Below are positions 1-16,547 of a stretch of 16,547 bases of DNA, in pieces. The notes beneath the pieces were generated by a model. It made no database searches, had not been told where the DNA came from, and saw only the letters and a program-made list of their open reading frames with translations. This stretch comes from a virus, in UHGV virus genome UHGV-1600615, one strand, 5' to 3'. The position numbers and the translations under genes are program-made. The number at the start of each line of letters is the position of its first letter. The stretch's first letter is position 1.

Positions 1-49
1 GCGACCACCGAGATCTACACTCTTTCCCTACACGACGCTCTTCCGATCT
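1..49. other. Illumina TruSeq universal adapter (P5/Read-1 primer region), technical contamination
   Basis: Positions 1-49 read GCGACCACCGAGATCTACACTCTTTCCCTACACGACGCTCTTCCGATCT, the 3' 49 nt of the TruSeq universal adapter. Position 50 is A, consistent with an A-tailed insert ligated to the adapter T overhang. Confidence 0.95.
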
Positions 50-50
50 A

Positions 51-290
51 TCAGATGACTTTCTTCGGAAAAGCTCATTGCAGGGGATCTACCTGGACAG
101 TCTGCCAACGGCACAGGAACTTGCAGAGTTCAGAATTTACTGGATGGCTGAGGGTAAGGCATACCATCAGGCACAATGGGAGCAGAAGCTGGCAAGGCGG
201 CTGCAGATTAGCAGACAGAAGCAATCAACATTACCTGATAACAACGTTCCGCACTGGAACAGCCCTGAAGCGTGGGAGGATTTCTTGTGA
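51..290 (+). CDS. 3' end of an upstream gene truncated by the window start; possibly a replication initiator (O-like) given its position before the P-like gene
   Basis: Frame is open from the first insert base to TGA at 288-290 and overlaps the start of the P-like gene, as O and P do in lambdoid phages. No diagnostic motif was recognised; the function is inferred from synteny only. Confidence 0.35.
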   Translation, partial: SDDFLRKSSLQGIYLDSLPTAQELAEFRIYWMAEGKAYHQAQWEQKLARRLQISRQKQSTLPDNNVPHWNSPEAWEDFL

Positions 291-1072
291 ACAACGTTTT
301 TACCGCGATACAAAACCGTGACGGAGAAGCCCTTTCTCGCATGTCAGGTTATGAGCATCAGTACGTCAACAATGACAATGTGGTGAACATGTCAGCAGAG
401 AGGCTTGTTGATGCCCTTTTCAAACAGCTGAAACAACTGTTTCCGGCGGCAGTGGTAACCAACCTGAAGACGCCAGAGCAGGAAGTTGCTGCAAAACAGC
501 AGTGGATTGCTGCGTTTGCAGAAGGGGGGATCCGAACCCGTGAACAGGTTTCTGCTGGTATGCGCCACGCCCGCGCCAGTGAGTCTCCGTTCTGGCCGTC
601 GCCAGGGCAATTCATCAAGTGGTGTAAAGACAGCAAGATGGTTCTTGGCGTCACCATTGACGATGTGATGGCGGAGTTTCACCGGTACAGCAAGGAAAAA
701 AGTTTATATCCTGGTGGTCCCGAAAGATTCCCGTGGCGACATCCGGTTATGTACTGGGTCGTATGTGATACCCGCCGTGCAATGTATCAGCGCCAGCTTA
801 GCGAGATTGAGGTTGAGAAACACGCGCGCAGGCTGCTCGATGATTGGGCGAAAAAGGTGGCTTCCGGACAGCAGATACCCGATCCGGTGATCAGCATACA
901 GGCAAAGCCAGAGCCCATGAGTACGCCTCCGGACACAGGGAGAGACGTTTACCATCCACCAGGGCGAAGTTTCGGGTGCATGCCTAACGCCGCCACCCTT
1001 GGGGGAATAACACCGGCGCAGTGGCTGATGGAGGAATACAGGCGGGGAAAGGCGGCAGGATTTATCAAGTAA
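272..1072 (+). CDS. P: Lambda P-like replication protein (DnaB helicase loader)
   Basis: 266-aa ORF. The segment LFPAAVV...QQWIAAFAEGGIRTREQVSAGMRHARASESPFWPSPGQFIKWCKD...SLYPGGPERFPWRHPVMYWVV matches the conserved core of lambda P as recalled (FPASL...RRQWVLAFRENGITTMEQVNAGMRVARRQNRPFLPSPGQFVAWCRE...GLYPDAESYPWK..HYWLV). The start is uncertain: GTG at 272 or ATG at 341. Confidence 0.85.
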   Translation: MGGFLVNNVFTAIQNRDGEALSRMSGYEHQYVNNDNVVNMSAERLVDALFKQLKQLFPAAVVTNLKTPEQEVAAKQQWIAAFAEGGIRTREQVSAGMRHARASESPFWPSPGQFIKWCKDSKMVLGVTIDDVMAEFHRYSKEKSLYPGGPERFPWRHPVMYWVVCDTRRAMYQRQLSEIEVEKHARRLLDDWAKKVASGQQIPDPVISIQAKPEPMSTPPDTGRDVYHPPGRSFGCMPNAATLGGITPAQWLMEEYRRGKAAGFIK

Positions 1073-1077
1073 TACCA

Positions 1078-1097
1078 GCGCGATAGCGCATTTTTTT
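1078..1097 (+). terminator. Weak candidate intrinsic terminator after the P-like gene
   Basis: GCGC (1078-1081), loop GATA, GCGC (1086-1089), then A plus a run of seven T (1091-1097). The stem is only 4 bp, so this is weak. Confidence 0.3.
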
Positions 1098-1108
1098 ACG
1101 TCTATATG

Positions 1109-1187
1109 ATTACCTGGAAGGTAATAAAATGTTCTAATCTCTATTGATTTCATGTCTTATGTGGTTTTTAATTACCTAAGGGGTAAA
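1109..1187 (+). promoter_or_regulatory. Pair of similar 17-bp inverted-repeat sites (operator-like) upstream of the gene at 1190
   Basis: ATTACCTGGAAGGTAAT at 1109-1125 is a perfect 6-bp inverted repeat around a 5-bp spacer. ATTACCTAAGGGGTAAA at 1171-1187 is a near copy that overlaps the ribosome-binding site of the next gene. The region is AT-rich and intergenic. Confidence 0.3.
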
Positions 1188-1189
1188 TC

Positions 1190-1537
1190 ATGAGAAAACA
1201 GATACAGGCTCTTGGTCGACTCAAAACAGGCCAGATGAACAAAACAGAATCTGCGTATTGCCAGCACCTTGAGCTGCGTAAACGTGCAGGGGAAATCGCC
1301 TGGTATCGATTCGAGGGTATCAAGCTGCGGTTAGCTAATAACACGTTCTATACGCCCGATTTCGCTGTGATGCTCGCCACCGGCGAGATGGAGCTGCACG
1401 AAGTGAAAGGGGGATTCTGGACCGATGACGCCAGAGTGAAAACCAAAGTCGCCGCAGATCAGTATCCGTTCCGAATCATCGGGGTAACGGTTAAGCCAAA
1501 GAAAGCAGGTGGTGGCTGGAACATCGAAGAGTTCTGA
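1190..1537 (+). CDS. Small phage protein, DUF1064-like, with a PD-(D/E)xK nuclease-fold signature
   Basis: 115-aa ORF with ribosome-binding site AAGGGG 7 nt upstream of the ATG. It contains FYTPDF followed about 15 residues later by ELHEVKG, the D ... (D/E)xK pattern of restriction-endonuclease-like folds. Confidence 0.6.
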   Translation: MRKQIQALGRLKTGQMNKTESAYCQHLELRKRAGEIAWYRFEGIKLRLANNTFYTPDFAVMLATGEMELHEVKGGFWTDDARVKTKVAADQYPFRIIGVTVKPKKAGGGWNIEEF

Positions 1538-1598
1538 ATCGACGATCTTTTTAGTTATCAATGTAATCAATAAGTTATGTGGATAAGCGAGGGTAAAG

Positions 1599-2174
1599 AT
1601 GGACGGTAATATCAAAGGGTTAGTTTCCGCCGGGCATGAGATGGCTTCGGAACTGAAAGCTGAATGTGGTGCCGTTGATATGCGCAGTGTGGCAAAGCTG
1701 ATCAGCGATTTGGCAACGCAACTGGAAGTGCAACTGGTGCGTGCTAATGCGCTGGCAGCGGAGAATGCGGGGCTGAAGTCTGGCGCTATGGATGAAATCA
1801 AGGTTATCAACCGTGGAGGGCAGGCATATTGCGTAAAAGATGGAGTGCAAGTTAATCCCATGTATGCAAGAGGGTGGAATGACTATCGCGCAAAGTCTCT
1901 GCAATCAGACACCCCAGCCACCGATGCTTTCCTGGCTGAAGTGAAGACTGAAGCACGCAAGGAGGGCGCTTACTTTGTGGCGAACAGGATGCTGGCTGCC
2001 TGGGAAGCTGGTTTTATTGATGATACTGCGAAGAACGCCGCGGATATTGCCCGGATGATTCTTACCTCTACTGAGTTTATGGCTAATGCGCCGGAAGGCG
2101 ATTTTGACCGCTCATTCTCTGATGGCGTTCTCGAAGATATCGCCGCCCAGCTTCGCAAAGGAGGCAACCAGTGA
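1599..2174 (+). CDS. Hypothetical phage protein (nin-like accessory region)
   Basis: 191-aa ORF with ribosome-binding site GAGGG upstream of the ATG at 1599. The N-terminus is predicted helical or coiled-coil. No family recognised. Confidence 0.7.
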   Translation: MDGNIKGLVSAGHEMASELKAECGAVDMRSVAKLISDLATQLEVQLVRANALAAENAGLKSGAMDEIKVINRGGQAYCVKDGVQVNPMYARGWNDYRAKSLQSDTPATDAFLAEVKTEARKEGAYFVANRMLAAWEAGFIDDTAKNAADIARMILTSTEFMANAPEGDFDRSFSDGVLEDIAAQLRKGGNQ

Positions 2175-2692
2175 GCAAGATTGATTATCAAAAGCTTCGT
2201 GAAATCGCTGAAAAAACAAAAATTGCTGGTGAAGCACCTGTAATGCCTTTCGATCAGCGAATTAATGCGCTTAACGATTTTATGAAGCACTTTTCGCCAG
2301 ATATCGCGCTGGCATTGTTGGATGAACGGGAAAGAAACCTGCAATACATCAAAAGCCGCGACCAGGAGAACGAGGATATTGCGCTAACGGTAGGGAAGCT
2401 GCGCGTTGAGCTGGAAGCCGCAGAGAAGCGCATTGCAGAACTGGAAAGCAACGAAGTCCGTGAAGTCGGAAATCAGTTTCTTGTTGTTCGCCATCCTGGG
2501 AAAACTCCTGTCATCAAGCACTGCACTGGTGACCTGGAAGAGTTTCTGCGGAAGTTAATCGAACAAGACCCGTTAGTAACTATCGGCATCATTACGCATC
2601 GCTATTACGGGATTGGCGGTCAATGGGTTCAGGATGCAGTTGAGTATCTGCATATGATGTCTGACGCTGGCATTCGCATCAAAGGAGAGTGA
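2171..2692 (+). CDS. Ead/Ea22-like prophage protein (putative)
   Basis: 173-aa ORF starting at GTG 2171, with a perfect Shine-Dalgarno AAGGAGG 6 nt upstream and a GTGA overlap with the previous stop. The N-terminal QKLREIAEK and the coiled-coil segment ALLDE...LEAAEKRIAELE resemble the Ead/Ea22-like family common in E. coli lambdoid prophages, recalled from memory. Confidence 0.6.
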   Translation: MSKIDYQKLREIAEKTKIAGEAPVMPFDQRINALNDFMKHFSPDIALALLDERERNLQYIKSRDQENEDIALTVGKLRVELEAAEKRIAELESNEVREVGNQFLVVRHPGKTPVIKHCTGDLEEFLRKLIEQDPLVTIGIITHRYYGIGGQWVQDAVEYLHMMSDAGIRIKGE

Positions 2693-2693
2693 T

Positions 2694-2903
2694 ATGGCTA
2701 TCGCTGCAAGTTACACCATGCATCTCTATTGTGACTGCCGCCAGTGTACGGAAGGTGTATATCCAGTGCCAGACTTCGGTGAGTATATCGGTAGGTCATG
2801 GTCTGGTTGTGCAAAAGAGGCCCGTAAAGACGGGTGGCGAATAAGCGCCGACAAAACGCGTGCTTTTGCGCCCGGGCATAAAGTTTTGAGGATTAACAAA
2901 TGA
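2694..2903 (+). CDS. Small hypothetical Cys-containing protein
   Basis: 69-aa ORF with ribosome-binding site GGAG upstream. Start and stop are coupled to the neighbouring genes, including an ATGA overlap with the next gene. Contains CDCRQC ... C. Confidence 0.5.
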   Translation: MAIAASYTMHLYCDCRQCTEGVYPVPDFGEYIGRSWSGCAKEARKDGWRISADKTRAFAPGHKVLRINK

Positions 2904-3436
2904 CCACTATAACCGATAAGAAACAGTATCCCAGCGAGCAATATCTTAATGAGCTGATCACCAACATAGAGTTTGCTGCAAGGGCACCAGTTGAAGTCGT
3001 GAGAGCGATGGCAGCAGAGCTACAGAAGCGGCGCGAAGCTGATAGTGCAGAACCTGCAAGTAATCATGAAGAGTTGCCGCTTGATTATCTCCAAGGTCAA
3101 AAAGATGGTCTTGAATGGGCTGCGCAGCTTGCAGAAGCAAATCACCCACAAACTGGCGACTGGCTTTACGATGACCCGCTGGAGCTGGCTAAAGCTATCA
3201 GAAAAGGTCCTGACATGCCCGAATTCGATGGACCAACTCCGGTAACTCCGGATGGTTGGATAAGCTGTAGTGAGCGAATGCCGGATAATAATCACGACGT
3301 ACTTTTCTTCGATGTGTGGGGTTATATCCGGATGGGCTGGTTCAGTGCGGACGATCGTTCGTGGTTTACGTCGGATGATGGGTGCCGCATGGAGGTAACC
3401 CACTGGATGCCGCTACCAGAACCGCCCCAGGGGTGA
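2900..3436 (+). CDS. DUF551-domain phage protein
   Basis: 178-aa ORF. The C-terminus WISCSERMPD...VLFFDVWGY...VTHWMPLPEPP matches the DUF551 signature (ending W.PLPEPP) as recalled. Confidence 0.65.
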   Translation: MTTITDKKQYPSEQYLNELITNIEFAARAPVEVVRAMAAELQKRREADSAEPASNHEELPLDYLQGQKDGLEWAAQLAEANHPQTGDWLYDDPLELAKAIRKGPDMPEFDGPTPVTPDGWISCSERMPDNNHDVLFFDVWGYIRMGWFSADDRSWFTSDDGCRMEVTHWMPLPEPPQG

Positions 3437-3502
3437 AATGATGCTTGGCCTGAAGTATTTTATGTAATTGGTATTGCTATATTTTTATCTGGGGATAAAC
3501 GA

Positions 3503-3745
3503 ATGTTCTCTCTGATTCAACGTGGTCAGATATACACCGATAGCGCCGGCTATCCAGTAAAAATCATTCGTAGTACTGATCACTCAGTGTTCTTCAAGAG
3601 GATGGATGGCTATCCTGGAAGGGTGTGCATCAGAAAATTCAATAATTTATTCGAACACATTGATCACAGAGAATATCACCAGATCCTGGCTGAAACAGAA
3701 CAGGAGAACCATCTGAAAAAATTACGTGCCATGCAAAGGAGATAA
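3503..3745 (+). CDS. Hypothetical small phage protein
   Basis: 80-aa ORF preceded by an AT-rich intergenic region and ribosome-binding site GGGGAT. No family recognised. Confidence 0.55.
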   Translation: MFSLIQRGQIYTDSAGYPVKIIRSTDHSVFFKRMDGYPGRVCIRKFNNLFEHIDHREYHQILAETEQENHLKKLRAMQRR

Positions 3746-3777
3746 ACCGGTAAAGGTGTTCGCGATAAAGGTAAATA

Positions 3778-4119
3778 TTGATGGCTAAATCAGCAGCAGA
3801 GCGCAAAGCCGCTCAGAGAGCCAGACAAGCTGCATCTGGTGTGCGTAAGCTGGAAATTGTGCTTGATGCTCAGGAAATTGAAATGCTGGAGCGTAACTGT
3901 GCCACGCGTCGCCCCGGGCGTGCGCCTTACGAATTTGGTGAGTATATAGCGTTACTGATCCGCCAGGATGATGCACGCGTGCGCGGGCGTATAAAATCGA
4001 TCAGCAGAAAACGTTGCGGTAAGTGCGGCGGGAGAGTTCCAGTTAATTCATGCCCGTGTAATGGTGACTCGCAATGCTGGGTGACTAAAGGCTGGCATGA
4101 AACGAAATTAATAGTGTGA
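3778..4119 (+). CDS. Putative small DNA-binding regulator: ribbon-helix-helix-like N-terminus plus C-terminal Cys4 zinc-ribbon-like cluster
   Basis: 113-aa ORF; the likely start is the ATG at 3781. The N-terminal segment VRKLEIVLDAQEIEMLERN has a strand-then-helix pattern typical of ribbon-helix-helix proteins. The C-terminus carries RCGKCGG-x9-CPCNG. It is the last gene before the terminator and the packaging genes. Confidence 0.6.
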   Translation: MMAKSAAERKAAQRARQAASGVRKLEIVLDAQEIEMLERNCATRRPGRAPYEFGEYIALLIRQDDARVRGRIKSISRKRCGKCGGRVPVNSCPCNGDSQCWVTKGWHETKLIV

Positions 4120-4168
4120 CATGTCACGAGTAGATTATGCATGATGAATTTGATGGGTTTTGAATACT

Positions 4169-4195
4169 GCCGCCAACTATGGCGGCTTTATTTTG
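4169..4195 (+). terminator. Rho-independent terminator between the regulator gene and the terminase genes
   Basis: Perfect 7-bp stem GCCGCCA (4169-4175) and TGGCGGC (4180-4186) around loop ACTA, followed by TTTATTTT (4187-4194). Confidence 0.75.
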
Positions 4196-4198
4196 CAT

Positions 4199-4230
4199 GG
4201 TACTATTACCACAACGGTAACTATTACCAC
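4199..4230 (+). repeat. Tandem direct repeat GGTA(A)CTATTACCAC in the leader of the small terminase gene
   Basis: GGTACTATTACCAC at 4199-4212 and GGTAACTATTACCAC at 4216-4230. It lies between the terminator and the probable terS start codons at 4238/4241, and it contains the same ATTACC half-site seen at 1109-1187. Confidence 0.5.
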
Positions 4231-4237
4231 GGTGGTT

Positions 4238-4834
4238 ATGATGCCTGCTGAACCTAAAACCTATAAACGCAAATCAACGCAATTTAAGCCACTAACAGCA
4301 ATGCAGGAGGCTTATTGCCAGTCATACATCAAAACGCCTGAAAACCAGACTCAGGCAGCGATTAACGCAGGATTCTCCCCAAATACAGCGGCAGTTAAAG
4401 CCAGTGTCATGATGCGCGATGAACGCATTCAAAAACGGATTGCCGAGCTGATGGAGGAGCGCAACAAACGAATGCGCGTCAGTGCCGATTACGTTCTTAT
4501 GCGCCTGGTGGAGATCGACCAGATGGATGTGATCGACATCCTCAACGACGATGGGAGCCTTAAGCCAATCCGCGAGTGGCCGAAAATCTGGCGCACTACG
4601 CTTAGTGGCTTTGATCTGTCATCGACCATCATGAACATGAACGAGGATTCGATAGAGACAATCCTCAAAAAAATTAAATGGCCTGACAAGGTGAAGAACC
4701 TTGAGCTGATTGGTAAGCATGTTGATGTCAACGCGTTCAAAGAACGTCTGGATGTTAATGTGAATGTGACAATTGCTGATCGCATAGCAGCAGCCAGGAA
4801 GCGACTCAAAGAACGTCAGGATGGTAATCAGTGA
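4238..4834 (+). CDS. terS: Terminase small subunit (Terminase_2-type)
   Basis: LTAMQEAYCQSYIKTPENQTQAAINAGFSPNTAAVKASVMM...RVSADYVLMRLVEID matches the conserved helix-turn-helix core of Terminase_2 small subunits. The track ORF starts at TTG 4160, but that would span the terminator hairpin, so the ATG at 4238/4241 (GGTGG ribosome-binding site upstream) is preferred. The stop overlaps the next start as GTGA. Confidence 0.85.
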   Translation: MMPAEPKTYKRKSTQFKPLTAMQEAYCQSYIKTPENQTQAAINAGFSPNTAAVKASVMMRDERIQKRIAELMEERNKRMRVSADYVLMRLVEIDQMDVIDILNDDGSLKPIREWPKIWRTTLSGFDLSSTIMNMNEDSIETILKKIKWPDKVKNLELIGKHVDVNAFKERLDVNVNVTIADRIAAARKRLKERQDGNQ

Positions 4835-7293
4835 CAGATACAGCGTTATCTCCTGAAGAGCAGTTGATCGAGGATATTGCAGGGTTCACTCACGATCCGC
4901 TTGGCTATGCCCTCTATGCGTTCCCGTGGGGGGAAGAGGGGACTGAACTGGCACATGCCACCGGCCCACGTCAGTGGCAGGCTGATGCGTTCCGAGAGAT
5001 ACGTGATCACCTGCAGAATCCAGAGACGCGCTATCAGCCGCTTATGCTGGCACGCGCTTCTGGTCACGGTATTGGTAAATCCGCATTCATCTCAATGCTG
5101 ATCAACTGGGGCATGTCCACTTGCGAGGATTGTAAGGTCGTGGTGACCGCCAACACCGACAACCAGCTACGAACGAAGACCTGGCCGGAAATTATCAAGT
5201 GGTCGAACCTTGCTATCACGAAAGACTGGTTTGCCTGTACCGCTACCGCGATGTACAGCAATGATCCTGGGCACGACAAGCGGTGGCGAGCTGACGCAAT
5301 CCCCTGGTCTGAGCACAACACTGAGGCATTCGCCGGACTACACAACGAGCGCAAACGCATCATCGTGGTATTCGATGAAGCGTCGAACATTGCGGATCTG
5401 GTGTGGGAAGTTGCTGAGGGTGCGCTTACGGACGAAGACACTGAGATTATCTGGGTGGCGTTCGGAAACCCTACTCGTAACACCGGGCGTTTCCGCGAAT
5501 GTTTCCGCAAATATAAACACCGCTGGAAAACTGCGCAGATTGACAGCCGGACGGTGGAAGGCACTAACAAACAGCAGTTGCAGAAATGGGTTGATGACTA
5601 CGGGGAAGATAGCGACTTCGTTAAAATCCGTGTGCGCGGCATATTCCCTGATGCATCTGAATTGCAGTTTATCCCTACCGGTCTTACTGATGAGGCAATG
5701 AAACGGGTGGTAACCGCTGCGCAGGTGGCGCATGCTCCGGTGATAATCGGTGTTGACCCGGCATATTCAGGCGTTGATGACGCGGTGATATACCTGCGGC
5801 AGGGGCTACACAGTAAGGTGCTGTGGACTGGCAACAAGACTACCGACGATCTGATTATGGCGAAGCGTATCGCTGACTTTGAAGACCAGTATCAGGCTGA
5901 CGCAGTGTTCATCGACTTCGGTTACGGAACCGGTTTGAAGTCAATCGGTGATGGCTGGGGACGTACATGGCAACTTGTTCCGTTCGGCGGTGCGTCCACT
6001 GACCCGCAGATGCTCAACAAGCGTGGGGAGATGTTCAACTCATGCAAGACATGGCTGAGGCTGGGCGGGATGCTGGATGACCAGGAAACAGCGGACGACC
6101 TGTCGGCGGCAGAGTATAAAGTTCGAGTGGACGGTAAAATCGTTATCGAACCGAAGGAAGATATCAAGGAGCGGCTTGGGCGTTCTCCTGGTAAAGGCGA
6201 TGCGCTACTGCTGACGTTTGCTTTCCCTGTGTCAAAGCGTCTGCGAATTCCCGGGTACCCGAACATTGACCGCGATACATCGAAGCTGGATAGCAAGAAC
6301 AAGCCATTCAAATCGGTTTATTACGAGGTTGGTGGCGATAACGACAAGTTGTTGCGTGAGTCCGGATTCGATGAGTTTCCAATTATGGCTCCGCGCTGGG
6401 AAGTTAACGGCGAAGATGTTTATGGATCATCATGCCCGGGTATGCTGGCGCTTGGACCTGTTAAGGCATTGCAGCTTCTCCAGAAGCGCAAGTCGCAGTT
6501 GATTGATAAAGCCACCAATCCGCCGATGGTTGCTCCTACTTCCCTCAAGAATCAGCGCGCCTCCCTTCTTCCTGGCGACATCACGTATATCGATCAGATT
6601 ACTGGTCAGGATGGCTTCAGGCCTGCTTATCTGGTTAACCCCAGTACAGCAGATTTGGTGGCAGATATTCAGGACACTCGTCAAATCATTAACAGCGCCT
6701 ACTTTGTCGATCTGTTCATGATGTTGCAGAACATCAATACCCGCTCGATGCCTGTTGAAGCGGTGATCGAAATGAAAGAAGAAAAACTTCTGATGTTGGG
6801 GCCGGTTCTGGAGCGTCTGAACGACGAATGTCTTAATCCTCTCATTGACCGTGCTTTCTCGATGATGGTGCGTAAAAACATGCTGCCTCCACCGCCAGAT
6901 GTGATGGAAGGTATGCCACTGAAGGTCGAATACATTTCCGTCATGGCTCAGGCACGGAAGTCTATCGGCCTGTCCAGTCTGGCGTCTACGGTCAACTTCA
7001 TTGGTCAACTTGCGCAAGCGAAACCAGAAGCTCTCGACAAACTCAACGTTGATCAGGCGATCGATGCATTCGCTGATATGTCCGGAGTGTCTCCAACCGT
7101 CATTGTTCCGCAGGAACAGGTTGAGCATGCTCGCCAGCAACGGGCACAGCAACAACAGCAGCAACAAATGATGGCGATGGGGATGGCGGCGGCACAGGGT
7201 GCCAAGACGCTAAGCGAAGCTAAAACTTCGGATCCGAGTGTTTTGTCTGCTATGGCGAATGCAGTTAGTGGTCAGGGTGGGCAATCACAATGA
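4831..7293 (+). CDS. Anomalous 820-aa fusion ORF: terminase large subunit (residues ~1-472) fused in frame to the C-terminal ~340 aa of a T7-like portal (head-tail connector)
   Basis: The N-terminal part has a Walker A-like P-loop ARASGHGIGKS (~5053-5085), Walker B IIVVFDEASN (~5359-5390), a WVAFGNPT motif, and a nuclease-domain signature VIIGVDPAYSGVDDAVIYL ... SPGKGDALLLTFAF. From residue ~478 the sequence follows the C-terminal two thirds of a podovirus portal, including a Q/M/A/G-rich tail QQRAQQQQQQQMMAMGMAAAQG that resembles the T7 gp8 C-terminus as recalled. The portal N-terminal ~200 residues are absent. The junction codons RIPGYP are encoded by GAATTCCCGGGTACC (6245-6259). Confidence 0.8.
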   Translation: MTDTALSPEEQLIEDIAGFTHDPLGYALYAFPWGEEGTELAHATGPRQWQADAFREIRDHLQNPETRYQPLMLARASGHGIGKSAFISMLINWGMSTCEDCKVVVTANTDNQLRTKTWPEIIKWSNLAITKDWFACTATAMYSNDPGHDKRWRADAIPWSEHNTEAFAGLHNERKRIIVVFDEASNIADLVWEVAEGALTDEDTEIIWVAFGNPTRNTGRFRECFRKYKHRWKTAQIDSRTVEGTNKQQLQKWVDDYGEDSDFVKIRVRGIFPDASELQFIPTGLTDEAMKRVVTAAQVAHAPVIIGVDPAYSGVDDAVIYLRQGLHSKVLWTGNKTTDDLIMAKRIADFEDQYQADAVFIDFGYGTGLKSIGDGWGRTWQLVPFGGASTDPQMLNKRGEMFNSCKTWLRLGGMLDDQETADDLSAAEYKVRVDGKIVIEPKEDIKERLGRSPGKGDALLLTFAFPVSKRLRIPGYPNIDRDTSKLDSKNKPFKSVYYEVGGDNDKLLRESGFDEFPIMAPRWEVNGEDVYGSSCPGMLALGPVKALQLLQKRKSQLIDKATNPPMVAPTSLKNQRASLLPGDITYIDQITGQDGFRPAYLVNPSTADLVADIQDTRQIINSAYFVDLFMMLQNINTRSMPVEAVIEMKEEKLLMLGPVLERLNDECLNPLIDRAFSMMVRKNMLPPPPDVMEGMPLKVEYISVMAQARKSIGLSSLASTVNFIGQLAQAKPEALDKLNVDQAIDAFADMSGVSPTVIVPQEQVEHARQQRAQQQQQQQMMAMGMAAAQGAKTLSEAKTSDPSVLSAMANAVSGQGGQSQ

Positions 7294-7586
7294 CAGATTA
7301 CGAAGACGATCAACTGAAAGAAGAAAACGCCAGTAAGCAACGTGACATGGCACAGCGTGAAATTGATGACATTCGCTTTGTCATGAGCAGTGAACAGGGG
7401 CGTCGCGTTGTCTGGTCTGTGCTGGAGAAAGGCCGGGTGTTTTCCGCTATCTCACCGATGGACGCTATGGCAATGGCATTTAATGAGGGGCAACGCAATC
7501 TGGCGCTGGAACTGTTTCAGCGCGTTATGGCGCATTGCCCTGAACAGTATTTGAAGATGGCCAAAGAGGCCAGTGAACAGGAGTGA
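7290..7586 (+). CDS. Small conserved head-module protein (possibly Bbp19-like)
   Basis: 98-aa ORF whose ATGA start overlaps the previous stop. It sits between portal and scaffold, as the small gene does in BPP-1-like modules; the family assignment is from memory only. Confidence 0.55.
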   Translation: MTDYEDDQLKEENASKQRDMAQREIDDIRFVMSSEQGRRVVWSVLEKGRVFSAISPMDAMAMAFNEGQRNLALELFQRVMAHCPEQYLKMAKEASEQE

Positions 7587-8284
7587 TCATGAATTTATTT
7601 GAGCGTTTGCTGTATCGCCGTCTTTGCAATGAGCAACCAGTCGATGGTGGAGCAGCTCCGGCTGCGTCAGAACCGTCAGCGCCTGCAGGTGATACCCCTG
7701 CTCCAGTTGGTGATCCATCACAACAGGAAGGTGATAAGCCACAACCTGTTGCTGATGGCGATAAACCTGCTGATGACAAAAAGCCTGAAAACGATAAGCA
7801 GGATGAAAAAAAGGGCGGCGATAAACCAGAGGGTGCGCCTGAGAAGTACGAGTTTCAGGCTGCCGAAGGCGTAGATCTGGATACAGAAGCGTTGAAGGAA
7901 TTCGAGCCGGTGGCGCGAGAACTTAACCTGACCAACGAGCAAGCGCAAAAGCTGGTTGATGCTTATCCGAAGATTCTGGCAGGTGTTCAGCAGCGCCAGG
8001 CAGAAGCCTGGCAGAAAACAACCGAGCAGTGGGCTGCGGATGTAAAAGCTGACAAAGAAATCGGTGGCGACAAGTTGATTTCTAACCTTAGCGTCGCACA
8101 GCGTGCGCTTGACCAGTTCGGGACACCTGAACTCAAAGAATATCTGAACACCACCGGGCTGGGTAATCACCCTGATCTGGTCAAAACGTTCGTGAAAATC
8201 GGAAAGGCGATGTCTGAAGATGGCATGGTCACCGGTGGTAATGAAGGCCAGCGTAGTGCGGCCGAAGTGCTCTATGGCAAATAA
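7583..8284 (+). CDS. Putative scaffolding protein
   Basis: 233-aa ORF immediately upstream of the capsid gene, with its start coupled to the previous stop. It has a long acidic, Pro/Ala/Lys-rich low-complexity N-terminal region followed by a helical C-terminal part ending SAAEVLYGK. Confidence 0.55.
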   Translation: MIMNLFERLLYRRLCNEQPVDGGAAPAASEPSAPAGDTPAPVGDPSQQEGDKPQPVADGDKPADDKKPENDKQDEKKGGDKPEGAPEKYEFQAAEGVDLDTEALKEFEPVARELNLTNEQAQKLVDAYPKILAGVQQRQAEAWQKTTEQWAADVKADKEIGGDKLISNLSVAQRALDQFGTPELKEYLNTTGLGNHPDLVKTFVKIGKAMSEDGMVTGGNEGQRSAAEVLYGK

Positions 8285-8292
8285 GAGAGGAA

Positions 8293-9285
8293 ATGACAAT
8301 GGCTGTTAAAGGCTTAACTGCGCTAACGCTGGCTGACTGGGGTAAGCGCGTCGATCCAAACGGGAAAGTCGATAAGATTATCGAGCTTCTCGGTCAAACT
8401 AACCCGATCCTTCAGGATATGCCTTTTGTCGAAGGGAACCTTCCTACCGGACACCGAACCACCATTCGTTCTGGTTTACCTTCAGCTACCTGGCGTTTGC
8501 TGAACTATGGCGTACAGCCAAGCAAATCAACCACAGTGCAGGTAACCGATTCCGTTGGCATGCTGGAAACCTATGCTGAAGTCGATAAGTCACTGGCTGA
8601 TCTGAACGGCAACACCGCCGAATTCCGCCTGTCTGAAGACCGCGCATTTATTGAAGCGATGAATCAGCAGATGGCGCAGACGCTGTTTTATGGTGATTCC
8701 AGCGTTAACCCTCAGCAGTTTATGGGACTGTCCTCCCGCTATTCCAGCCTGTCTGCGGGTAATGCTCAGAACATCATTGATGCTGGTGGCACGGGTACAG
8801 ATAACACCTCAATCTGGTTAGTGGTGTGGGGCGAAAACACCGTGCATGGCATCTTCCCGAAAGGGCAGAAGGCTGGCATCCAGATGGAAGATAAAGGCCA
8901 GGTGACACTGGAAGATGCTAATGGCGGCAAGTACGAAGGCTATCGCACCCATTACAAATGGGATAACGGACTTGCTCTGCGTGACTGGCGTTATGTTGTT
9001 CGCATTGCAAACATCGATGTCAGCAATCTTTCAGAACCTTCCTCTGCCGCAAATATTGCGAAGTTGATGGTTAAAGCACTGCATCGAATTCCAAACCGTG
9101 GCATGGGTCGCCCGGTGTTCTACATGAACCGCACTGTAGGCCAGGCTCTTGATCTGCAATCTCTGGAGAAAACATCTCTGGCGATCAGCGTAAAAGAGAC
9201 AGAAGGCGAGTGGTGGACGTCATTCCGTGGTGTACCAATCCGTGAAACTGATGCGCTTCTGGAAACAGAAGCCCGCGTGGTGTAA
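8293..9285 (+). CDS. Major capsid protein (putative)
   Basis: 330-aa ORF with ribosome-binding site GAGAGGAAA upstream. Size and position (after the scaffold, before decoration and tail genes) fit a major capsid protein. It is followed by a stem-loop and an internal terminator. Confidence 0.7.
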   Translation: MTMAVKGLTALTLADWGKRVDPNGKVDKIIELLGQTNPILQDMPFVEGNLPTGHRTTIRSGLPSATWRLLNYGVQPSKSTTVQVTDSVGMLETYAEVDKSLADLNGNTAEFRLSEDRAFIEAMNQQMAQTLFYGDSSVNPQQFMGLSSRYSSLSAGNAQNIIDAGGTGTDNTSIWLVVWGENTVHGIFPKGQKAGIQMEDKGQVTLEDANGGKYEGYRTHYKWDNGLALRDWRYVVRIANIDVSNLSEPSSAANIAKLMVKALHRIPNRGMGRPVFYMNRTVGQALDLQSLEKTSLAISVKETEGEWWTSFRGVPIRETDALLETEARVV

Positions 9286-9301
9286 CGCCTGTTATTAACC
9301 T

Positions 9302-9321
9302 GTGGGTCGTAACAGACCCAC
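9302..9321 (+). other. Stem-loop immediately downstream of the capsid gene, with no T-tract
   Basis: Perfect 7-bp stem GTGGGTC (9302-9308) and GACCCAC (9315-9321) around loop GTAACA. It lies between the capsid stop (9285) and the ribosome-binding site of the next gene. Confidence 0.45.
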
Positions 9322-9336
9322 TAATGGAGAAAGAAG

Positions 9337-9774
9337 ATGATCACCGACAAACTGTTGATGTTCTCCGAAGCTCAGGCGGTTACGAATACCGCGGCTTCTA
9401 CTGACGTAATCGATCTCGGTCCAATTGACGGAAAACGTCGTGATATCGGCGTGGGTTACCCGCTTGAGTTTTGGGCGCTGGTTAACACAGCCGCCGCAGC
9501 AAGCGGTGATGCAACTGTAAACATCCAGTTGCAGACGAGTGAGGATAACAGCTCATGGACCACTATTTATGATAGTGGTGCACTGGCAAAGACCGCCCTG
9601 ACAGCAGGTAAACGAGTTGTTTCTGCAAAGGTGCCTGCCGGTGTTCAGCGATATCTGCGTGTTAACTACTCCGTCGCAACTGGCCCGCTAACGGCTGGCG
9701 AATTCACTGCTGGTATCAGTCTTGATGTTGATGCCAATACGCCGTATCCGATCCGCTCAAAAGTAACTGGTTAA
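9337..9774 (+). CDS. Putative capsid decoration/cement protein (possibly Bbp16-like)
   Basis: 145-aa ORF directly after the major capsid gene with ribosome-binding site GGAGAAAG. Predicted beta-rich and Ala/Thr/Gly-rich. The assignment is by synteny and family memory only. Confidence 0.4.
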   Translation: MITDKLLMFSEAQAVTNTAASTDVIDLGPIDGKRRDIGVGYPLEFWALVNTAAAASGDATVNIQLQTSEDNSSWTTIYDSGALAKTALTAGKRVVSAKVPAGVQRYLRVNYSVATGPLTAGEFTAGISLDVDANTPYPIRSKVTG

Positions 9775-9775
9775 G

Positions 9776-10120
9776 GTGATATCGATGTCAGGTGAGAAAC
9801 CAAGATACCGCGTTCTGCGCCTCTCTCATATCCATAACACACTGTGGCCGGAGGGGGCAGAAATCGAATACGAAGGTGAGCCTGGTAGCGCACTGGAACC
9901 TGTTAACGATGCAGCCAGACAGGCAAAAGCAAAAGTTGCAGGAAAGGTGTCAATGGCAGCAACCAGCACCAAAATCATCAACGATGTGTCAGATGATGGT
10001 GAACTGGATAAGCTCCGTGAAGAGTACGAATTGCTCTTTAACGAGAAGCCACACCATAACGCCAAAGCTGAAACGCTCCGCGAGAAGATCGCAGATAAGC
10101 GTAAAGAACTGGGCGTGTAA
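9776..10120 (+). CDS. Hypothetical virion-module protein
   Basis: 114-aa ORF. The likely true start is the ATG at 9785, with AAGGTG 6 nt upstream. The C-terminal half is charged and helical. It is followed by a strong terminator hairpin. Confidence 0.6.
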   Translation: MISMSGEKPRYRVLRLSHIHNTLWPEGAEIEYEGEPGSALEPVNDAARQAKAKVAGKVSMAATSTKIINDVSDDGELDKLREEYELLFNEKPHHNAKAETLREKIADKRKELGV

Positions 10121-10136
10121 GCCTCGCGGATCAGAC

Positions 10137-10158
10137 AAGGGGCTTCGGCCCCTTTATT
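10137..10158 (+). terminator. Intrinsic terminator or attenuator between head and tail gene blocks
   Basis: 7-bp stem AAGGGGC (10137-10143) and GCCCCTT (10148-10154) closing a TTCG tetraloop, followed by TTTATT. Confidence 0.7.
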
Positions 10159-10164
10159 GCAGGA

Positions 10165-10494
10165 GTGTATATGGAACTCGTAAACCTCAAAACCGGCACT
10201 GACAGCTACCAGGATGAGAGCGGAGAAACCAGAACTCGCGATGAATACCCGTGGGGGCTGTGCATCACTCTTAATAACGACACATTGAATAAGCTGAAGG
10301 CGCAACCTCAGGGCGTCGGAACAGAAGTGATGATAACTGCAAAGGCTGTTATTCGAGGCCTGTCTGCCAGAGAAACTGACGATGGTGTTAATCGCAGCGC
10401 CGATCTGCAGATCACTGATATGGCGATCGCTCCTGTTTCCGGGGATGTAGAAAAATCAGCGGCTGAAACCCTGTACGGCAATGGGGGTGAGTAA
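10165..10494 (+). CDS. Hypothetical virion protein whose C-terminus matches the scaffold C-terminus
   Basis: 109-aa track ORF. The likely start is the ATG at 10171, with AGGAG 5 nt upstream. Its C-terminus KSAAETLYGNGGE resembles the scaffold C-terminus RSAAEVLYGK. Confidence 0.6.
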   Translation: MYMELVNLKTGTDSYQDESGETRTRDEYPWGLCITLNNDTLNKLKAQPQGVGTEVMITAKAVIRGLSARETDDGVNRSADLQITDMAIAPVSGDVEKSAAETLYGNGGE

Positions 10495-11099
10495 TGGCCT
10501 CTGTAGTAGAGATCTGCAATCGTGCGCTGTCCAATATTGGCAACAGCCGCAGCATTAACAGCCTGACGGAAGCCAGCAAGGAAGCGGGGGAATGTTCGCT
10601 GCACTTTGAGGCCTGCCGTGATGCTGTGCTTTCTGATTTTGACTGGAACTTTGCTACCAAACGCGTGGCGCTTGCAAATACGAGCAATCCACCGCCTGAC
10701 TGGGAATATGCGTATCAGTACCCGTCCGATTGTCTGCGCATTACTGAAATTATGCTTCCTGGTGTACGCAATCCAACAGCAGCAATGCGCGTTCAGTACG
10801 AAGTTGGTGCAGACACCAACGGAACAGGAAAGTTGATCTACACAGACCAGCCGCAGGCATGGCTCAAGTATGTCTCTCGCGTTTCAGATGTGAACATGTT
10901 TGATGCCATTTTTATGGAGGCGTTGGCCTGGCGTCTTGCGGCAGCTATTAACATGGCGCTGACTGGGAATGCAGACCTCGGTACGTTTTCCCTCAATATG
11001 TACAATCGCGTGATTCTTAGTGCTGGCTCGCATAGCCAGAATGAATCACAGGAACCACAGCCACCGGTTGACGAGTTTACCATTGCGAGGTTGTCCTGA
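10494..11099 (+). CDS. Tail tubular protein A (T7 gp11-like adaptor/gatekeeper), putative
   Basis: 201-aa ORF with a TAATG start/stop overlap. The N-terminus ASVVEICNRALSNIGNSRSINSLTE...DFDWNF parallels T7 gp11 ([24 protein letters not shown]...RGWTFN) as recalled, and the size matches gp11 (196 aa). Confidence 0.6.
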   Translation: MASVVEICNRALSNIGNSRSINSLTEASKEAGECSLHFEACRDAVLSDFDWNFATKRVALANTSNPPPDWEYAYQYPSDCLRITEIMLPGVRNPTAAMRVQYEVGADTNGTGKLIYTDQPQAWLKYVSRVSDVNMFDAIFMEALAWRLAAAINMALTGNADLGTFSLNMYNRVILSAGSHSQNESQEPQPPVDEFTIARLS

Positions 11100-13570: not shown

Positions 13571-14034
13571 TGATCGATGTTCGAATTATTCCCGCTACCG
13601 AAGAGCATCTTCAGATGATTTTGCCGGATGTTCGTCAGGCTGATATTGACGAACTGTATGCGGTATCGCTGATGACTACCGAAGATGCGCTGCGTGTTGG
13701 TCTGCGCACTGCGACTATGGCCTGGTCAGGATTTGCGAACGGAGAACTGGTAACCATGTTTGGCGTATCTCCGGCGTCAATGATCGGTGGCAATGGTACG
13801 CCCTGGCTGGTCGGAACCAGCCGTATCGAAAAATATCAGAAGACATTTCTTCGCCACTGCCGCCCTGTATTGCAGCAGATGCTGGCAGTTTATCCGCGCC
13901 TGGAAAACTATGTCGACGAGCGAAACCATGTTGCCAAAGCATGGCTGCACTGGCTTGGATTCAGGCTTGAAGAAGCCGCGCCTTATGGTGCTCTTGGTCT
14001 TAATTTCCACAGATTTCACATGGAGAGAAAATAA
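13570..14034 (+). CDS. Putative internal virion protein (gp13-like by position)
   Basis: 154-aa ORF, translationally coupled by a TGATG overlap. The assignment rests on synteny with T7-like modules only. Confidence 0.45.
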   Translation: MIDVRIIPATEEHLQMILPDVRQADIDELYAVSLMTTEDALRVGLRTATMAWSGFANGELVTMFGVSPASMIGGNGTPWLVGTSRIEKYQKTFLRHCRPVLQQMLAVYPRLENYVDERNHVAKAWLHWLGFRLEEAAPYGALGLNFHRFHMERK

Positions 14035-14579
14035 TGTGCGATCCGGTTATTGCTGGTGGCGCAATGCTCGCCATGAGTGGCATTCAGGCATACACCCAGT
14101 ACCAACAGGGAAAGTATGCCTCGAAGGTTGCAGAAGCGAACGCAGATATAGCCACAGCTCAGGCAAATGATGCAATAAACAGAGGTAACGCTGAAGCTGA
14201 GCAACGGCGCAGAGAGACCCGACAGCGGCTTGGTACACAGGCGGCGACAATGGGGGCTACCGGCGCTGATTTATCTACAGGTAACGCGCTGGATATATTT
14301 GGCGACACTGCCCAGTTTGGCGCTCTTGATTCTCTGACGACGGTGAATAACGCGCAACGCGAGGCTTACGGTTATCAGGTTCAGGCTGCCAACTATAAAG
14401 CAGAAGCCAGTTCAGCCCGTAAACAGGGGAATGTGGGAGCAGCAACAACATTGCTCACTGCGCCTCTGAAGGCATACGGTGCGTACCAGATGTTTGGTGG
14501 GACGTGGAGTCCGTTTACTCAAAGCACCCCTGCGCCAATCTGGGCAGCAGCAGGAACCAGATTACCCGGAGGATTATAA
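14034..14579 (+). CDS. Putative internal virion protein B (T7 gp14-like)
   Basis: 181-aa ORF with a TAATG overlap. It begins MC followed by a hydrophobic segment (MCDPVIAGGAMLAMSGIQA), as T7 gp14 does, and is Ala/Gln-rich with a Gly/Pro-rich C-terminus. The size matches gp14 (196 aa). Confidence 0.5.
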   Translation: MCDPVIAGGAMLAMSGIQAYTQYQQGKYASKVAEANADIATAQANDAINRGNAEAEQRRRETRQRLGTQAATMGATGADLSTGNALDIFGDTAQFGALDSLTTVNNAQREAYGYQVQAANYKAEASSARKQGNVGAATTLLTAPLKAYGAYQMFGGTWSPFTQSTPAPIWAAAGTRLPGGL

Positions 14580-16547
14580 TGCCAGTCGTACCAACAGTAT
14601 CCGGCCGTCAGGTTCAGAGCCGTGGAGTTCAGTCAGCAGGCTTGCAGACGTTTTCTCAGCCAGGTATTGGTGATGCTTTTGTTCGGGCAGGGACAGAGGC
14701 AATTGATGTTTTTGGTCAGGCAAAACAGCGTGCCAATATCGCTCTGGCTCAGGAGGCATCTCTTAACCTCAGTCAGATAAGCAGTGATCTGCTGAATAAT
14801 CCTGAAACAGGATTGCTTAACCTGAAAGGGAAAAATGCTATTGGAAAAGGTCAGGAGTATACGCAGCAGTTTGATGCTCAGGCCGAACAACTGGCTATGT
14901 CGCTGCCGGATGAACAGGCTCGTAATGCTTTCATGCAGCAGGCGCAGCAGCAGCGCATTCAGTTCACTACGCAGGCAGGGCGGCACGAGATAGGGCAAAT
15001 AAATGCCTACGAAGAAGGCCAGTTTCAGGCTACGCTGCTGAACAATGGTAAAAATGCCGCAGCATTGTATGGCGACAACGCCGCATATGTATTGGCTAAT
15101 AAGCAAACTTTCCAGCAAATTGAGGATTACGGCATTGCACATGGCTGGAGTGACGAGCAAATCCAGGCCAAGAAAATCGAGTTTAAAGAGAAGGTTGCTG
15201 ATGCCGCATTGTCCCAGTGGTCGGCAAACAATGCGACCGCATTCATCCAAAGTAATGGCGAGTTAAGTGATACTGCTGCTGGAGCTCGCCGTGCTGTAGC
15301 AGATAGTGACTCTTCCGAGCGTGCCCGTGGCATACGCAACAATAACCCAGGAAATCTCGAATACAGCAAAACTAATCCGTGGGTAGGCCAGACCGGTGAT
15401 GATGGTCGATTTGCTAAATTCGAAACACCTGAACACGGGATTCGTGCATTAGGGCGAAACCTGATGTCGTATCAGAGGCAGGGTATTGATACCGTCAGCG
15501 AGATAATTAATCGCTGGGCACCGCCTACTGATAAAAATGATACTATGTCGTATATCAAAGCAGTGTGCGAACAACTTGGCGTTTCTGCTGATGATCCTCT
15601 CGATGCATCTAATCCTGATACCCTGAAGGCGCTTTGTGCAGCCATTATCCATCATGAGAACGGTAGCCAGCCATACAGTGATCAGCAGTTAACTGCTGGT
15701 GTCAGTGCAGCACTTGGTTTATCAACAATTCCAACCAACACCAAACGCTATACCGGTAATGCAGCATTCGATGCGGCATCTCCTGAGGCGCAGGCAAGTT
15801 TTATGCGACAGGCGGATCAACTGCGTCGGCAGCAGCAGGCTGAATATAAAACGATGATTGACAGCCAGGTTCGCGATGCGACAGCTGCATATATGCGTGG
15901 CGTTGAATTTCCTAACCCACCTGGTGAGGATGATTTTATTGCAGCTTATGGAGTCAGAGAAGGAAACCTGCGATATACCGAGTTTAAGAATACGCAGATC
16001 GCCGGACAGTATATAGGCTCTTTCCGCAACATGCCGACAAGCAGCATTACAGCATATGTTGAGCAATTACGCCCGGATACTGGTGATACAGGGGAGGGCT
16101 ATGCGGCACGCGCAGCTCTTTATGACAACGTTGTTTCGGCTGCAAATCAGGTGATAAAGCAGCGGCAGTCGGATCCTGTGCAGTTCTCTCTTGCCTCCGG
16201 ACAGGCAAAGCCTATCGACATGAGCAATAAGGATAACTTTGGACAGAGCGTTGCCTTGCGTGCCGCTCAGGTCAGTGACCTTGCTAAGTCATATGGCACT
16301 CCACTGACGTTCTTTTCCAAAGACGAGGCCAATCAGATCGGTGTTTTCTTTCGTGATGCTCCAGTTTCCCAACAGGCAGCATATCTCGATACCATCAGGC
16401 AGAGCACTGGTGGTGGGCAGGTGTATATGTCAGCACTACAGCAGATCAGTACCAACGCTCCATCTGCTGCCGTTGCAAAAACCTACCTGAATATCAGTGT
16501 GAAACAGAACGCTGCTGCACTGACACAGGCTAAGAACGTTACAATCA
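14579..16547 (+). CDS. Large internal virion/ejection protein (gp15/gp16-like), 3' end outside the window
   Basis: The frame is open from the ATG at 14579 (TAATG overlap) to the window end, at least 656 codons. It is absent from the ORF track only because it has no stop in the window. It follows the gp14-like gene and contains a conserved-looking block RNNNPGNLEY...RFAKFETPEHGIRAL...IINRWAP. Confidence 0.65.
   Translation, partial: MPVVPTVSGRQVQSRGVQSAGLQTFSQPGIGDAFVRAGTEAIDVFGQAKQRANIALAQEASLNLSQISSDLLNNPETGLLNLKGKNAIGKGQEYTQQFDAQAEQLAMSLPDEQARNAFMQQAQQQRIQFTTQAGRHEIGQINAYEEGQFQATLLNNGKNAAALYGDNAAYVLANKQTFQQIEDYGIAHGWSDEQIQAKKIEFKEKVADAALSQWSANNATAFIQSNGELSDTAAGARRAVADSDSSERARGIRNNNPGNLEYSKTNPWVGQTGDDGRFAKFETPEHGIRALGRNLMSYQRQGIDTVSEIINRWAPPTDKNDTMSYIKAVCEQLGVSADDPLDASNPDTLKALCAAIIHHENGSQPYSDQQLTAGVSAALGLSTIPTNTKRYTGNAAFDAASPEAQASFMRQADQLRRQQQAEYKTMIDSQVRDATAAYMRGVEFPNPPGEDDFIAAYGVREGNLRYTEFKNTQIAGQYIGSFRNMPTSSITAYVEQLRPDTGDTGEGYAARAALYDNVVSAANQVIKQRQSDPVQFSLASGQAKPIDMSNKDNFGQSVALRAAQVSDLAKSYGTPLTFFSKDEANQIGVFFRDAPVSQQAAYLDTIRQSTGGGQVYMSALQQISTNAPSAAVAKTYLNISVKQNAAALTQAKNVTI

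What the first reader, a model, noticed from the sequence alone, without database searches (positions are those of the whole stretch)
1..49. Untrimmed Illumina adapter at the 5' end of the window
The first 49 nt are the TruSeq universal adapter, followed by an A-tailed insert. The contig end is therefore a library-fragment boundary, the first gene is truncated artificially, and the sequence was not adapter-trimmed. This bears on how much weight to give assembly-level anomalies elsewhere in the window.
Basis: seen in the sequence. Interest (0 to 1): 0.5.

Follow-up and report, generated by a model that had tools for sequence, protein, structure and literature searches.

The report
Leftover Illumina adapter at contig start
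The first 49 bases of this window are leftover Illumina sequencing adapter, not biology, stuck onto an otherwise accurate E. coli prophage contig; this is a common, already described assembly artefact.

Summary
Confirmed. Window 1-49 matches nt 10-58 of the 58-nt TruSeq universal (P5) adapter exactly, 49 of 49, with no i5 index. No other adapter fragment occurs in the window.

In every related phage or prophage I inspected, homology starts at or within four bases of position 50. That point lies inside a 271-codon DnaT-like replication gene, and only its last 79 codons plus the stop (to position 290) are present.

The same inward-facing, contig-end adapter occurs in at least 120 IMG/VR contigs and is described in PMC11536531.

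One detail is wrong. The A at position 50 is a phage base, not an A-tail. The T at position 49 is the adapter's T-overhang.

On anomalies elsewhere, the result is mixed:
- **3' end:** the last 71 nt (16477-16547) are Bacteroides nqrA joined mid-gene to the phage, so this is a second terminal artefact.
- **Interior:** positions 50-16476 are reproduced by assemblies of two other samples with three mismatches in total.
- **Internal deletion:** these assemblies include a 2,063-nt deletion that fuses terminase and portal in frame (6255|6256). That deletion is real.

This is an ordinary artefact: trim 1-49 and 16477-16547.

The parts
1..49 (+). Illumina TruSeq-type universal (P5) adapter, nt 10-58 of 58. 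There is no i5 index. It ends with the T-overhang at position 49. It is non-biological sequence.
   Evidence: Exact 49 of 49 match. The only adapter 12-mer in the window. Homology of listed relatives starts at 50, or at 46 by chance.
50..290 (+). 3' fragment of a DnaT-like ssDNA-binding / primosomal replication gene. It holds the last base of codon 192, codons 193-271 and the TGA stop at 288-290. The first 575 nt of the gene are missing because the contig runs into the adapter.
   Evidence: The full 816-nt gene is present in L001 at 926-1741 and in L008/L009 at 3305-4120, and window 50 corresponds to nt 576. Pfam DnaT (PF17948) hits residues 19-76 of the translation of 3-290. The first 16 residues of that translation are adapter-encoded.
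287..1072 (+). Replication protein P gene. It is intact and is the first complete gene in the window.
   Evidence: Annotated as replication protein P in relatives. The exact protein is found on about 1000 contigs.
4831..7293 (+). An 820-aa in-frame fusion ORF. Large terminase codons 1-475 are joined at 6255|6256 to portal codons 215-559. This is a real 2,063-nt deletion, not an assembly error.
   Evidence: The breakpoint was mapped against L003, L004 and L008. Pfam Head-tail_con covers profile positions 210-488 at residues 476-757. The same junction occurs in L009 (SAMEA8899562, 100-kb contig), L215 (SRR9333245), L005 and L012.
14579..16476 (+). The first 632 codons of the 837-codon internal virion protein gene that follows the T7 gp14-family core protein gene. 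It is cut at 16476 by the chimeric join.
   Evidence: The 837-aa gene is intact in L003, L215, L217 and L221. All phage and prophage matches that reach this far stop at 16476.
16477..16547 (+). A chimeric tail of 71 nt from a Bacteroides nqrA gene (subunit A of the Na+-translocating NADH:quinone reductase). It is joined in frame to the phage gene with a 2-nt 'GC' microhomology.
   Evidence: No E. coli or phage match for these bases. Contig L005/L220 is 100% identical and continues about 1 kb into nqrA. Pfam NQRA_2nd starts mid-domain at the junction residue 633. Protein identity is 97% and nucleotide identity 89.7% to Bacteroides faecis.

Best explanation
Window 1-49 is technical contamination. 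It is the 3' 49 nt of the single-index TruSeq-type universal (P5) adapter, still ligated through its T-overhang at position 49 to the end of one sequenced DNA fragment that began at window position 50.

The most likely route is as follows; this part is inferred. A short-insert library molecule was read in Read 2 past the end of its insert into the reverse complement of the P5 adapter (AGATCGGAAGAGCGTCGTGTAGGGAAAGAGTGTAGATCTCGGTGGTCGC). The read was not, or not fully, adapter-trimmed. The assembler then used it to extend a low-coverage or branching contig end.

The carrier sequence is a phiV10-like (Uetakevirus) temperate podophage or prophage of E. coli from a human-gut-type metagenome. The adapter cuts its DnaT-like replication gene at nt 576 of 816. 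It would add 16 spurious codons to any edge gene call.

The other contig end carries an analogous read-level artefact, a 71-nt Bacteroides nqrA tail. The interior, 50-16476, is faithful.
For: Shown:
- Exact 49 of 49 identity to the adapter, with no i5 index between P5 and the Read-1 primer site.
- The sequence lies flush with the contig start and points inward.
- Listed relatives lose homology at 49|50, and the natural upstream sequence (...CAATGGCAGCC) is known from near-identical prophages L008 and L009.
- The same configuration recurs in at least 120 IMG/VR contigs. Of 122 occurrences, 108 are inward-facing within 110 nt of an end and 77 are flush with the end. Adapter lengths range from 38 to 58 nt, and five cases are exactly 49 nt.
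- PMC11536531 reports that CTCTTCCGATCT is concentrated at contig beginnings, next to the reverse-read-specific adapter segment, in microbial genome databases.
- Another assembly, 100% identical over 14,478 nt (L005, SAMN06111986), carries no adapter 12-mer, so the adapter belongs to this assembly and not to the organism.

Inferred: the Read-2 read-through route and the coverage-gap reason for the contig ending here.
Against: No reads are available, so read-through by a single read or a few reads is not shown directly. The window's own contig was not found in any searchable collection, so the library kit and the trimming history are unknown. The adapter sequence was taken from my own memory of Illumina's published sequences, not from a database. 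PMC11536531 independently quotes the core 12-mer and the neighbouring reverse-specific segment, and both are present here.
Confidence: 0.97

Rival explanations
1. The adapter did not enter by 3' read-through. It came from an aberrant library molecule, such as an adapter concatemer or an adapter ligated internally, so that Read 1 itself began with adapter sequence followed by phage DNA.
For: The orientation and sequence would be the same as observed. In IMG/VR a minority of adapter copies lie away from the ends or in the opposite orientation (14 of 122), so non-standard molecules do exist.
Against: Read-through of short inserts is by far the commonest source. The junction is a clean ...GATCT|insert join, as expected from a normal ligation. 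The partial length of 49 of 58 nt fits a read running out. PMC11536531 describes the contig-end pattern as general.
Confidence: 0.08
2. The 49-mer is a genuine part of the replicon, either natural sequence or an engineered phage or vector that carries Illumina primer sites.
For: None beyond its presence in the window.
Against: The chance probability is about 4^-49. None of the listed E. coli or phage relatives carries it, and the natural sequence upstream of position 50 is known and different. The adapter interrupts an essential replication gene mid-codon. It is truncated at the contig edge.
Confidence: 0.005
3. The whole contig is an unreliable chimeric assembly, so its internal oddities, above all the terminase::portal fusion, are artefacts like the adapter.
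For: Both contig ends are artefactual: the adapter at 1-49 and Bacteroides nqrA at 16477-16547. No complete E. coli genome or phage record spans the 6255|6256 junction.
Against: Window 50-8692 equals L009 (SAMEA8899562, a 100-kb contig) with 2 mismatches. Window 6099-16476 equals L215 (SRR9333245) with 1 mismatch. Both span the junction. The junction has no microhomology that could mislead an assembler. Contigs from differently named pipelines (NODE_, scaffold_, Logan) agree.
Confidence: 0.03

Closest known systems
Illumina adapter contamination at contig extremities in microbial genome and metagenome databases (PMC11536531, BMC Genomics 2024). From my own knowledge, this is also the target of NCBI VecScreen/UniVec and FCS-adaptor screening.
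   Same: The core 12-mer is the same (CTCTTCCGATCT at a contig beginning). It sits next to the reverse-read-specific segment (the reverse complement of CGTCGTGTAGGGAAAGAGTGT). It lies flush with the contig end and faces inward, and the contig breaks inside a gene. The same pattern occurs in at least 120 IMG/VR contigs.
   Different: Nothing material. In this case the adapter extends 49 nt into P5, which shows that it is the no-i5 (single-index) form.
phiV10-like temperate podophages of E. coli. vB_EcoP_ZX5 and related isolates are assigned to the genus Uetakevirus (PMC9782041).
   Same: About 97-98% nucleotide identity and the same gene order from the replication genes through the structural module: terminase, portal, protease, capsid, and tail or internal proteins.
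   Different: The window lineage lacks 2,063 nt. The missing stretch holds the terminase C-terminus, a gp49-family gene, tRNA-Arg(TCT), a 68-aa ORF and the portal N-terminus. The accessory genes at 1757-3737 are mosaic.
Inter-genome chimeric contig ends in short-read metagenome assemblies
   Same: There is an abrupt mid-gene switch from an E. coli phage to Bacteroides nqrA with only 2 nt of shared sequence, confined to the contig terminus.
   Different: The same junction also appears in a second public assembly (SAMN06111986 scaffold_937, L005/L220). It is therefore supported by reads, probably as a chimeric library molecule, and was not invented by one assembler.

Membership tests
TruSeq-type universal (P5) adapter contamination at a contig end | Exact or near-exact match to the published adapter sequence | tested here: met
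   49 of 49 identity to nt 10-58 of the 58-nt universal adapter. The 12-mer and the neighbouring segment quoted in PMC11536531 are both present.
TruSeq-type universal (P5) adapter contamination at a contig end | Located at the contig terminus with its 3' (ligation) end facing the insert | tested here: met
   It occupies positions 1-49 on the plus strand, flush with the window start. The geometry is the same in 108 of 122 IMG/VR occurrences.
TruSeq-type universal (P5) adapter contamination at a contig end | Homology to the organism's relatives breaks at the adapter boundary, and the relatives carry different sequence there | tested here: met
   Matches start at 50 (or at 46 by chance) in the listed records and at 50 in nine related contigs. 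The natural upstream sequence is shown.
TruSeq-type universal (P5) adapter contamination at a contig end | Single-index (no i5) architecture, with P5 directly abutting the Read-1 primer site | tested here: met
   The sequence ...GAGATCTACAC|TCTTTCCCTACACGACG... is contiguous, with no 8-nt index. The adapter architecture is from my own knowledge.
TruSeq-type universal (P5) adapter contamination at a contig end | Supported only by read-through reads: low terminal coverage, with adapter at the 3' ends of Read 2 | not testable with these tools
   No reads are available, and the source contig was not located.
   The A at position 50 is present in the natural prophage sequence. The first insert base is A in only 28 of 108 comparable junctions.
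phiV10-like (Uetakevirus) E. coli prophage | High nucleotide identity and the same gene order as reference phages across the replication and structural modules | tested here: met
   97.6-98.4% identity over 84-90% of the window to O157 typing phages 9 and 10, phiv142-3, PAS61 and ZX5. phiV10 itself matches at 97.9% over 4120-16476. The genus assignment of ZX5 comes from PMC9782041.

The most novel reading that the evidence does not exclude
The adapter itself leaves no room for novelty. The least ordinary thing in the window is the 2,063-nt deletion. It fuses large-terminase codon 475 to portal codon 215 exactly in frame, giving an 820-aa ORF, and removes tRNA-Arg(TCT) and a gp49-family gene. 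It recurs at 99.98% identity or more in gut metagenome assemblies of at least three samples, yet it is in none of 5,426 complete E. coli genomes. The most novel reading is that this is a retained, domesticated or satellite-like prophage derivative in which the fusion protein has a function. The more likely reading is a recently inactivated prophage spreading clonally with its host.
Probability: 0.04. Interest if true: 0.3.

Novelty: not a real feature. Interest (0 to 1): 0.06.

Why it matters
The value is practical. Positions 1-49 and 16477-16547 should be masked before any annotation. Otherwise an edge gene call gains 16 adapter-encoded residues (DHRDLHSFPTRRSSDL...), and a phage virion protein appears fused to NqrA domains. 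That false fusion is already on record as an 896-aa gene call on the public contig scaffold_937.

The result also shows that terminal artefacts do not discredit the interior. The internal terminase::portal fusion, which looks like a misassembly, is a genuine deletion.

More broadly, it adds one more example, alongside at least 120 in IMG/VR, of untrimmed adapters ending viral contigs in public collections.

Tried and rejected
1. Finding the window's own contig. I tried the adapter|phage junction pattern in IMG/VR and in JGI metagenomes. I also tried an exact look-up of the adapter-extended partial protein. All found nothing. The cluster look-up shows the fusion protein only on two ENA contigs of at most 15,472 nt. 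The source therefore remains unknown.

2. An engineered origin for the 6255|6256 junction. The junction reads GAATTCCCGGG|TACC, which holds EcoRI, SmaI and KpnI sites. I rejected the idea because GAATTCCCGGG is natural terminase sequence in intact relatives, and the join does not fall at a restriction cut position.

3. Misassembly as the cause of the deletion. I rejected this because assemblies of other samples share it.

4. Real mosaic divergence as the explanation for the last 71 nt. I rejected this because they are Bacteroides nqrA, entered mid-domain. In addition, phage contigs identical up to 16476 continue as phage.

5. The deletion junction in JGI metagenomes and IMG/VR: no hits.

6. 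tRNA scan of the window: none found. This fits loss of the tRNA-Arg that lies in the deleted segment of L008.

Full report
**Observation**

The window begins GCGACCACCGAGATCTACACTCTTTCCCTACACGACGCTCTTCCGATCT|ATCAGATGAC.... A longest-common-substring comparison with adapter sequences that I supplied from memory shows that window 1-49 equals nt 10-58 of the 58-nt TruSeq universal adapter, with no mismatch. It also contains the full 33-nt PE/Read-1 primer site at 17-49 and the last 20 nt of P5 at 1-20. P5 abuts the primer site directly, so no i5 index is present. This is the single-index 'universal' form, which from my own knowledge is also used by other TruSeq-compatible kits.

Outside 1-49, no adapter, P7, Nextera or PhiX fragment longer than 10 nt occurs. 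The diagnostic 12-mer AGATCGGAAGAG occurs once, at 38-49 on the minus strand. Even allowing one mismatch, 0.07 matches are expected by chance. The observation and its coordinates are exact.

**What the adapter is attached to**

Megablast of the first 3 kb and of the whole window finds hundreds of E. coli prophages and phiV10-like podophages at 95-99.9% identity. These include O157 typing phages 9 and 10, phiv142-3, PAS61, ZX5 and phiV10. In every listed row the match starts at position 50, at 46 where the natural sequence happens to share ATC, or further in.

A three-way alignment shows 17 of 49 identities before position 50 and about 99% identity after it. In the two nearest relatives the natural sequence is ...CAATGGCAGCC|ATCAGATGAC... 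These relatives are CP090402.1 (L008, 1 mismatch in 6,206 nt) and a 100-kb metagenome contig (L009, 2 mismatches in 8,643 nt).

Position 50 corresponds to nt 576 of an 816-nt gene annotated as a DnaT-like ssDNA-binding domain protein. The window therefore keeps only one base of codon 192, codons 193-271 and the stop at 288-290. Translating from the contig edge (3-290) gives 16 adapter-encoded residues followed by a Pfam DnaT domain at residues 19-76.

**Correction of one detail**

From established knowledge of TruSeq chemistry, the non-templated A is added to the 3' ends of the fragment and pairs with the adapter's 3' T-overhang. On this strand that overhang is the T at position 49. As an empirical check, I looked at 108 comparable adapter-insert junctions from IMG/VR. 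The base after ...GATCT was A 28, G 33, C 32 and T 15 times, so A is not enriched.

**How it got there (inferred)**

On the minus strand the window start reads insert followed by AGATCGGAAGAGCGTCGTGTAGGGAAAGAGTGTAGATCTCGGTGGTCGC. This is the classic Read-2 read-through of an insert shorter than the read. An untrimmed read of this kind can extend a contig wherever true coverage is thin or the assembly graph branches. The extension ends when the read ends, here 9 nt short of the full adapter.

This is a common artefact. A capped scan of IMG/VR for the 38-nt no-i5 adapter core returned 120 contigs. Of 122 occurrences, 108 lie within 110 nt of a contig or locus end and face inward, and 77 are flush with the end. 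Adapter lengths range from 38 to 58 nt, and five are exactly 49 nt.

PMC11536531 reports the same pattern across the MGnify genome catalogues: the reverse complement CTCTTCCGATCT is concentrated at contig beginnings, next to the reverse-specific segment. The authors argue that such contamination breaks contigs.

A public assembly that is 100% identical to window 2070-16547 (ENA ERZ28665303, SAMN06111986, scaffold_937; L005/L220) has no adapter 12-mer. This shows that the adapter belongs to this particular assembly.

**Does the adapter cast doubt on the rest of the window?**

I checked the two other discontinuities that I noticed.

*The 3' end.* Every phage or prophage match that reaches this far stops at 16476. 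The remaining 71 nt continue, in scaffold_937, for about 1 kb into a gene whose product hits Pfam NQRA_2nd from profile position 73 of 145, starting exactly at the junction residue 633, followed by NQRA_SLBB. That product is 97% identical in protein to NqrA of Bacteroides faecis and related Bacteroides, and the DNA is 89.7% identical. The join shares only 'GC' between the two partners. Contigs from other samples that are identical up to 16476 (L215, L221) continue as the normal 837-aa phage gene. The 3' tail is therefore an inter-genome chimera. Because two assemblies share it, it is supported by reads, most likely from a chimeric library molecule at a coverage gap.

*The interior.* The ORF at 4831-7293 (820 aa) joins large-terminase codon 475 to portal codon 215 at 6255|6256, exactly in frame. 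Relative to CP090402.1 it removes 2,063 nt (L008 10086-12148). The lost stretch holds the terminase C-terminal 16 codons, a gp49-family gene, tRNA-Arg(TCT), a 68-aa ORF and 214 portal codons. There is no microhomology at the junction.

No complete E. coli genome among 524 matching records, and no phage record, spans the junction. Neither do JGI metagenomes or IMG/VR. However, the identical junction is present in L009 (LEEM22-1, SAMEA8899562, a 100-kb contig), in L215 (Logan SRR9333245, 22 kb), and in L005 and L012. L009 and L215 together cover window 50-16476 with three mismatches in total. The deletion is therefore real and marks a defective prophage lineage, and the interior of the contig is accurate.

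**Verdict**

The finding is correct and ordinary. Positions 1-49 are untrimmed Illumina adapter at a contig end, a known artefact with no biological meaning. The practical consequences are to mask 1-49 and 16477-16547, to treat the first and last genes as artificially truncated, and not to dismiss the internal terminase::portal deletion.

The source contig was not found, and no reads could be examined. The read-through route is therefore inferred rather than shown.

Noticed in passing
window 16477-16547 (junction 16476|16477): The last 71 nt are Bacteroides nqrA, joined in frame and mid-domain to the phage internal virion protein gene with only 2 nt of microhomology. The same chimera occurs in public contig ENA ERZ28665303 scaffold_937, where it has been called as an 896-aa 'protein' with NqrA Pfam domains.
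   Followed up: yes
window 4831-7293 (junction 6255|6256): An 820-aa in-frame large-terminase::portal fusion is created by a 2,063-nt deletion. The deletion also removes a gp49-family gene, tRNA-Arg(TCT) and a 68-aa ORF. It is present at 99.98% identity or more in assemblies of at least three samples (SAMN06111986, SAMEA8899562, SRR9333245), but in none of 5,426 complete E. coli genomes, nor in IMG/VR or JGI metagenomes. The prophage lineage is presumably defective.
   Followed up: yes
window about 2048-2070: Two other public assemblies that are 100% identical to the window (NODE_1304 of ERZ773516 and scaffold_937 of ERZ28665303) both begin here, inside the 191-aa ORF just upstream of the Ead/Ea22-like gene. 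This suggests an assembly-graph branch in the mosaic accessory-gene region. The window's assembler passed it and then ran into the adapter.
   Followed up: partly
window 1757-3737: This is a mosaic accessory-gene block holding a 191-aa hypothetical, Ead/Ea22-like, 69-aa, DUF551 and DUF4222 genes. It matches only patchily in most relatives. It is shared intact with a small set of genomes and contigs, including CP090402.1.
   Followed up: partly
Many of them come from a few metagenome accession numbers, for example 3300045988.
   Followed up: partly
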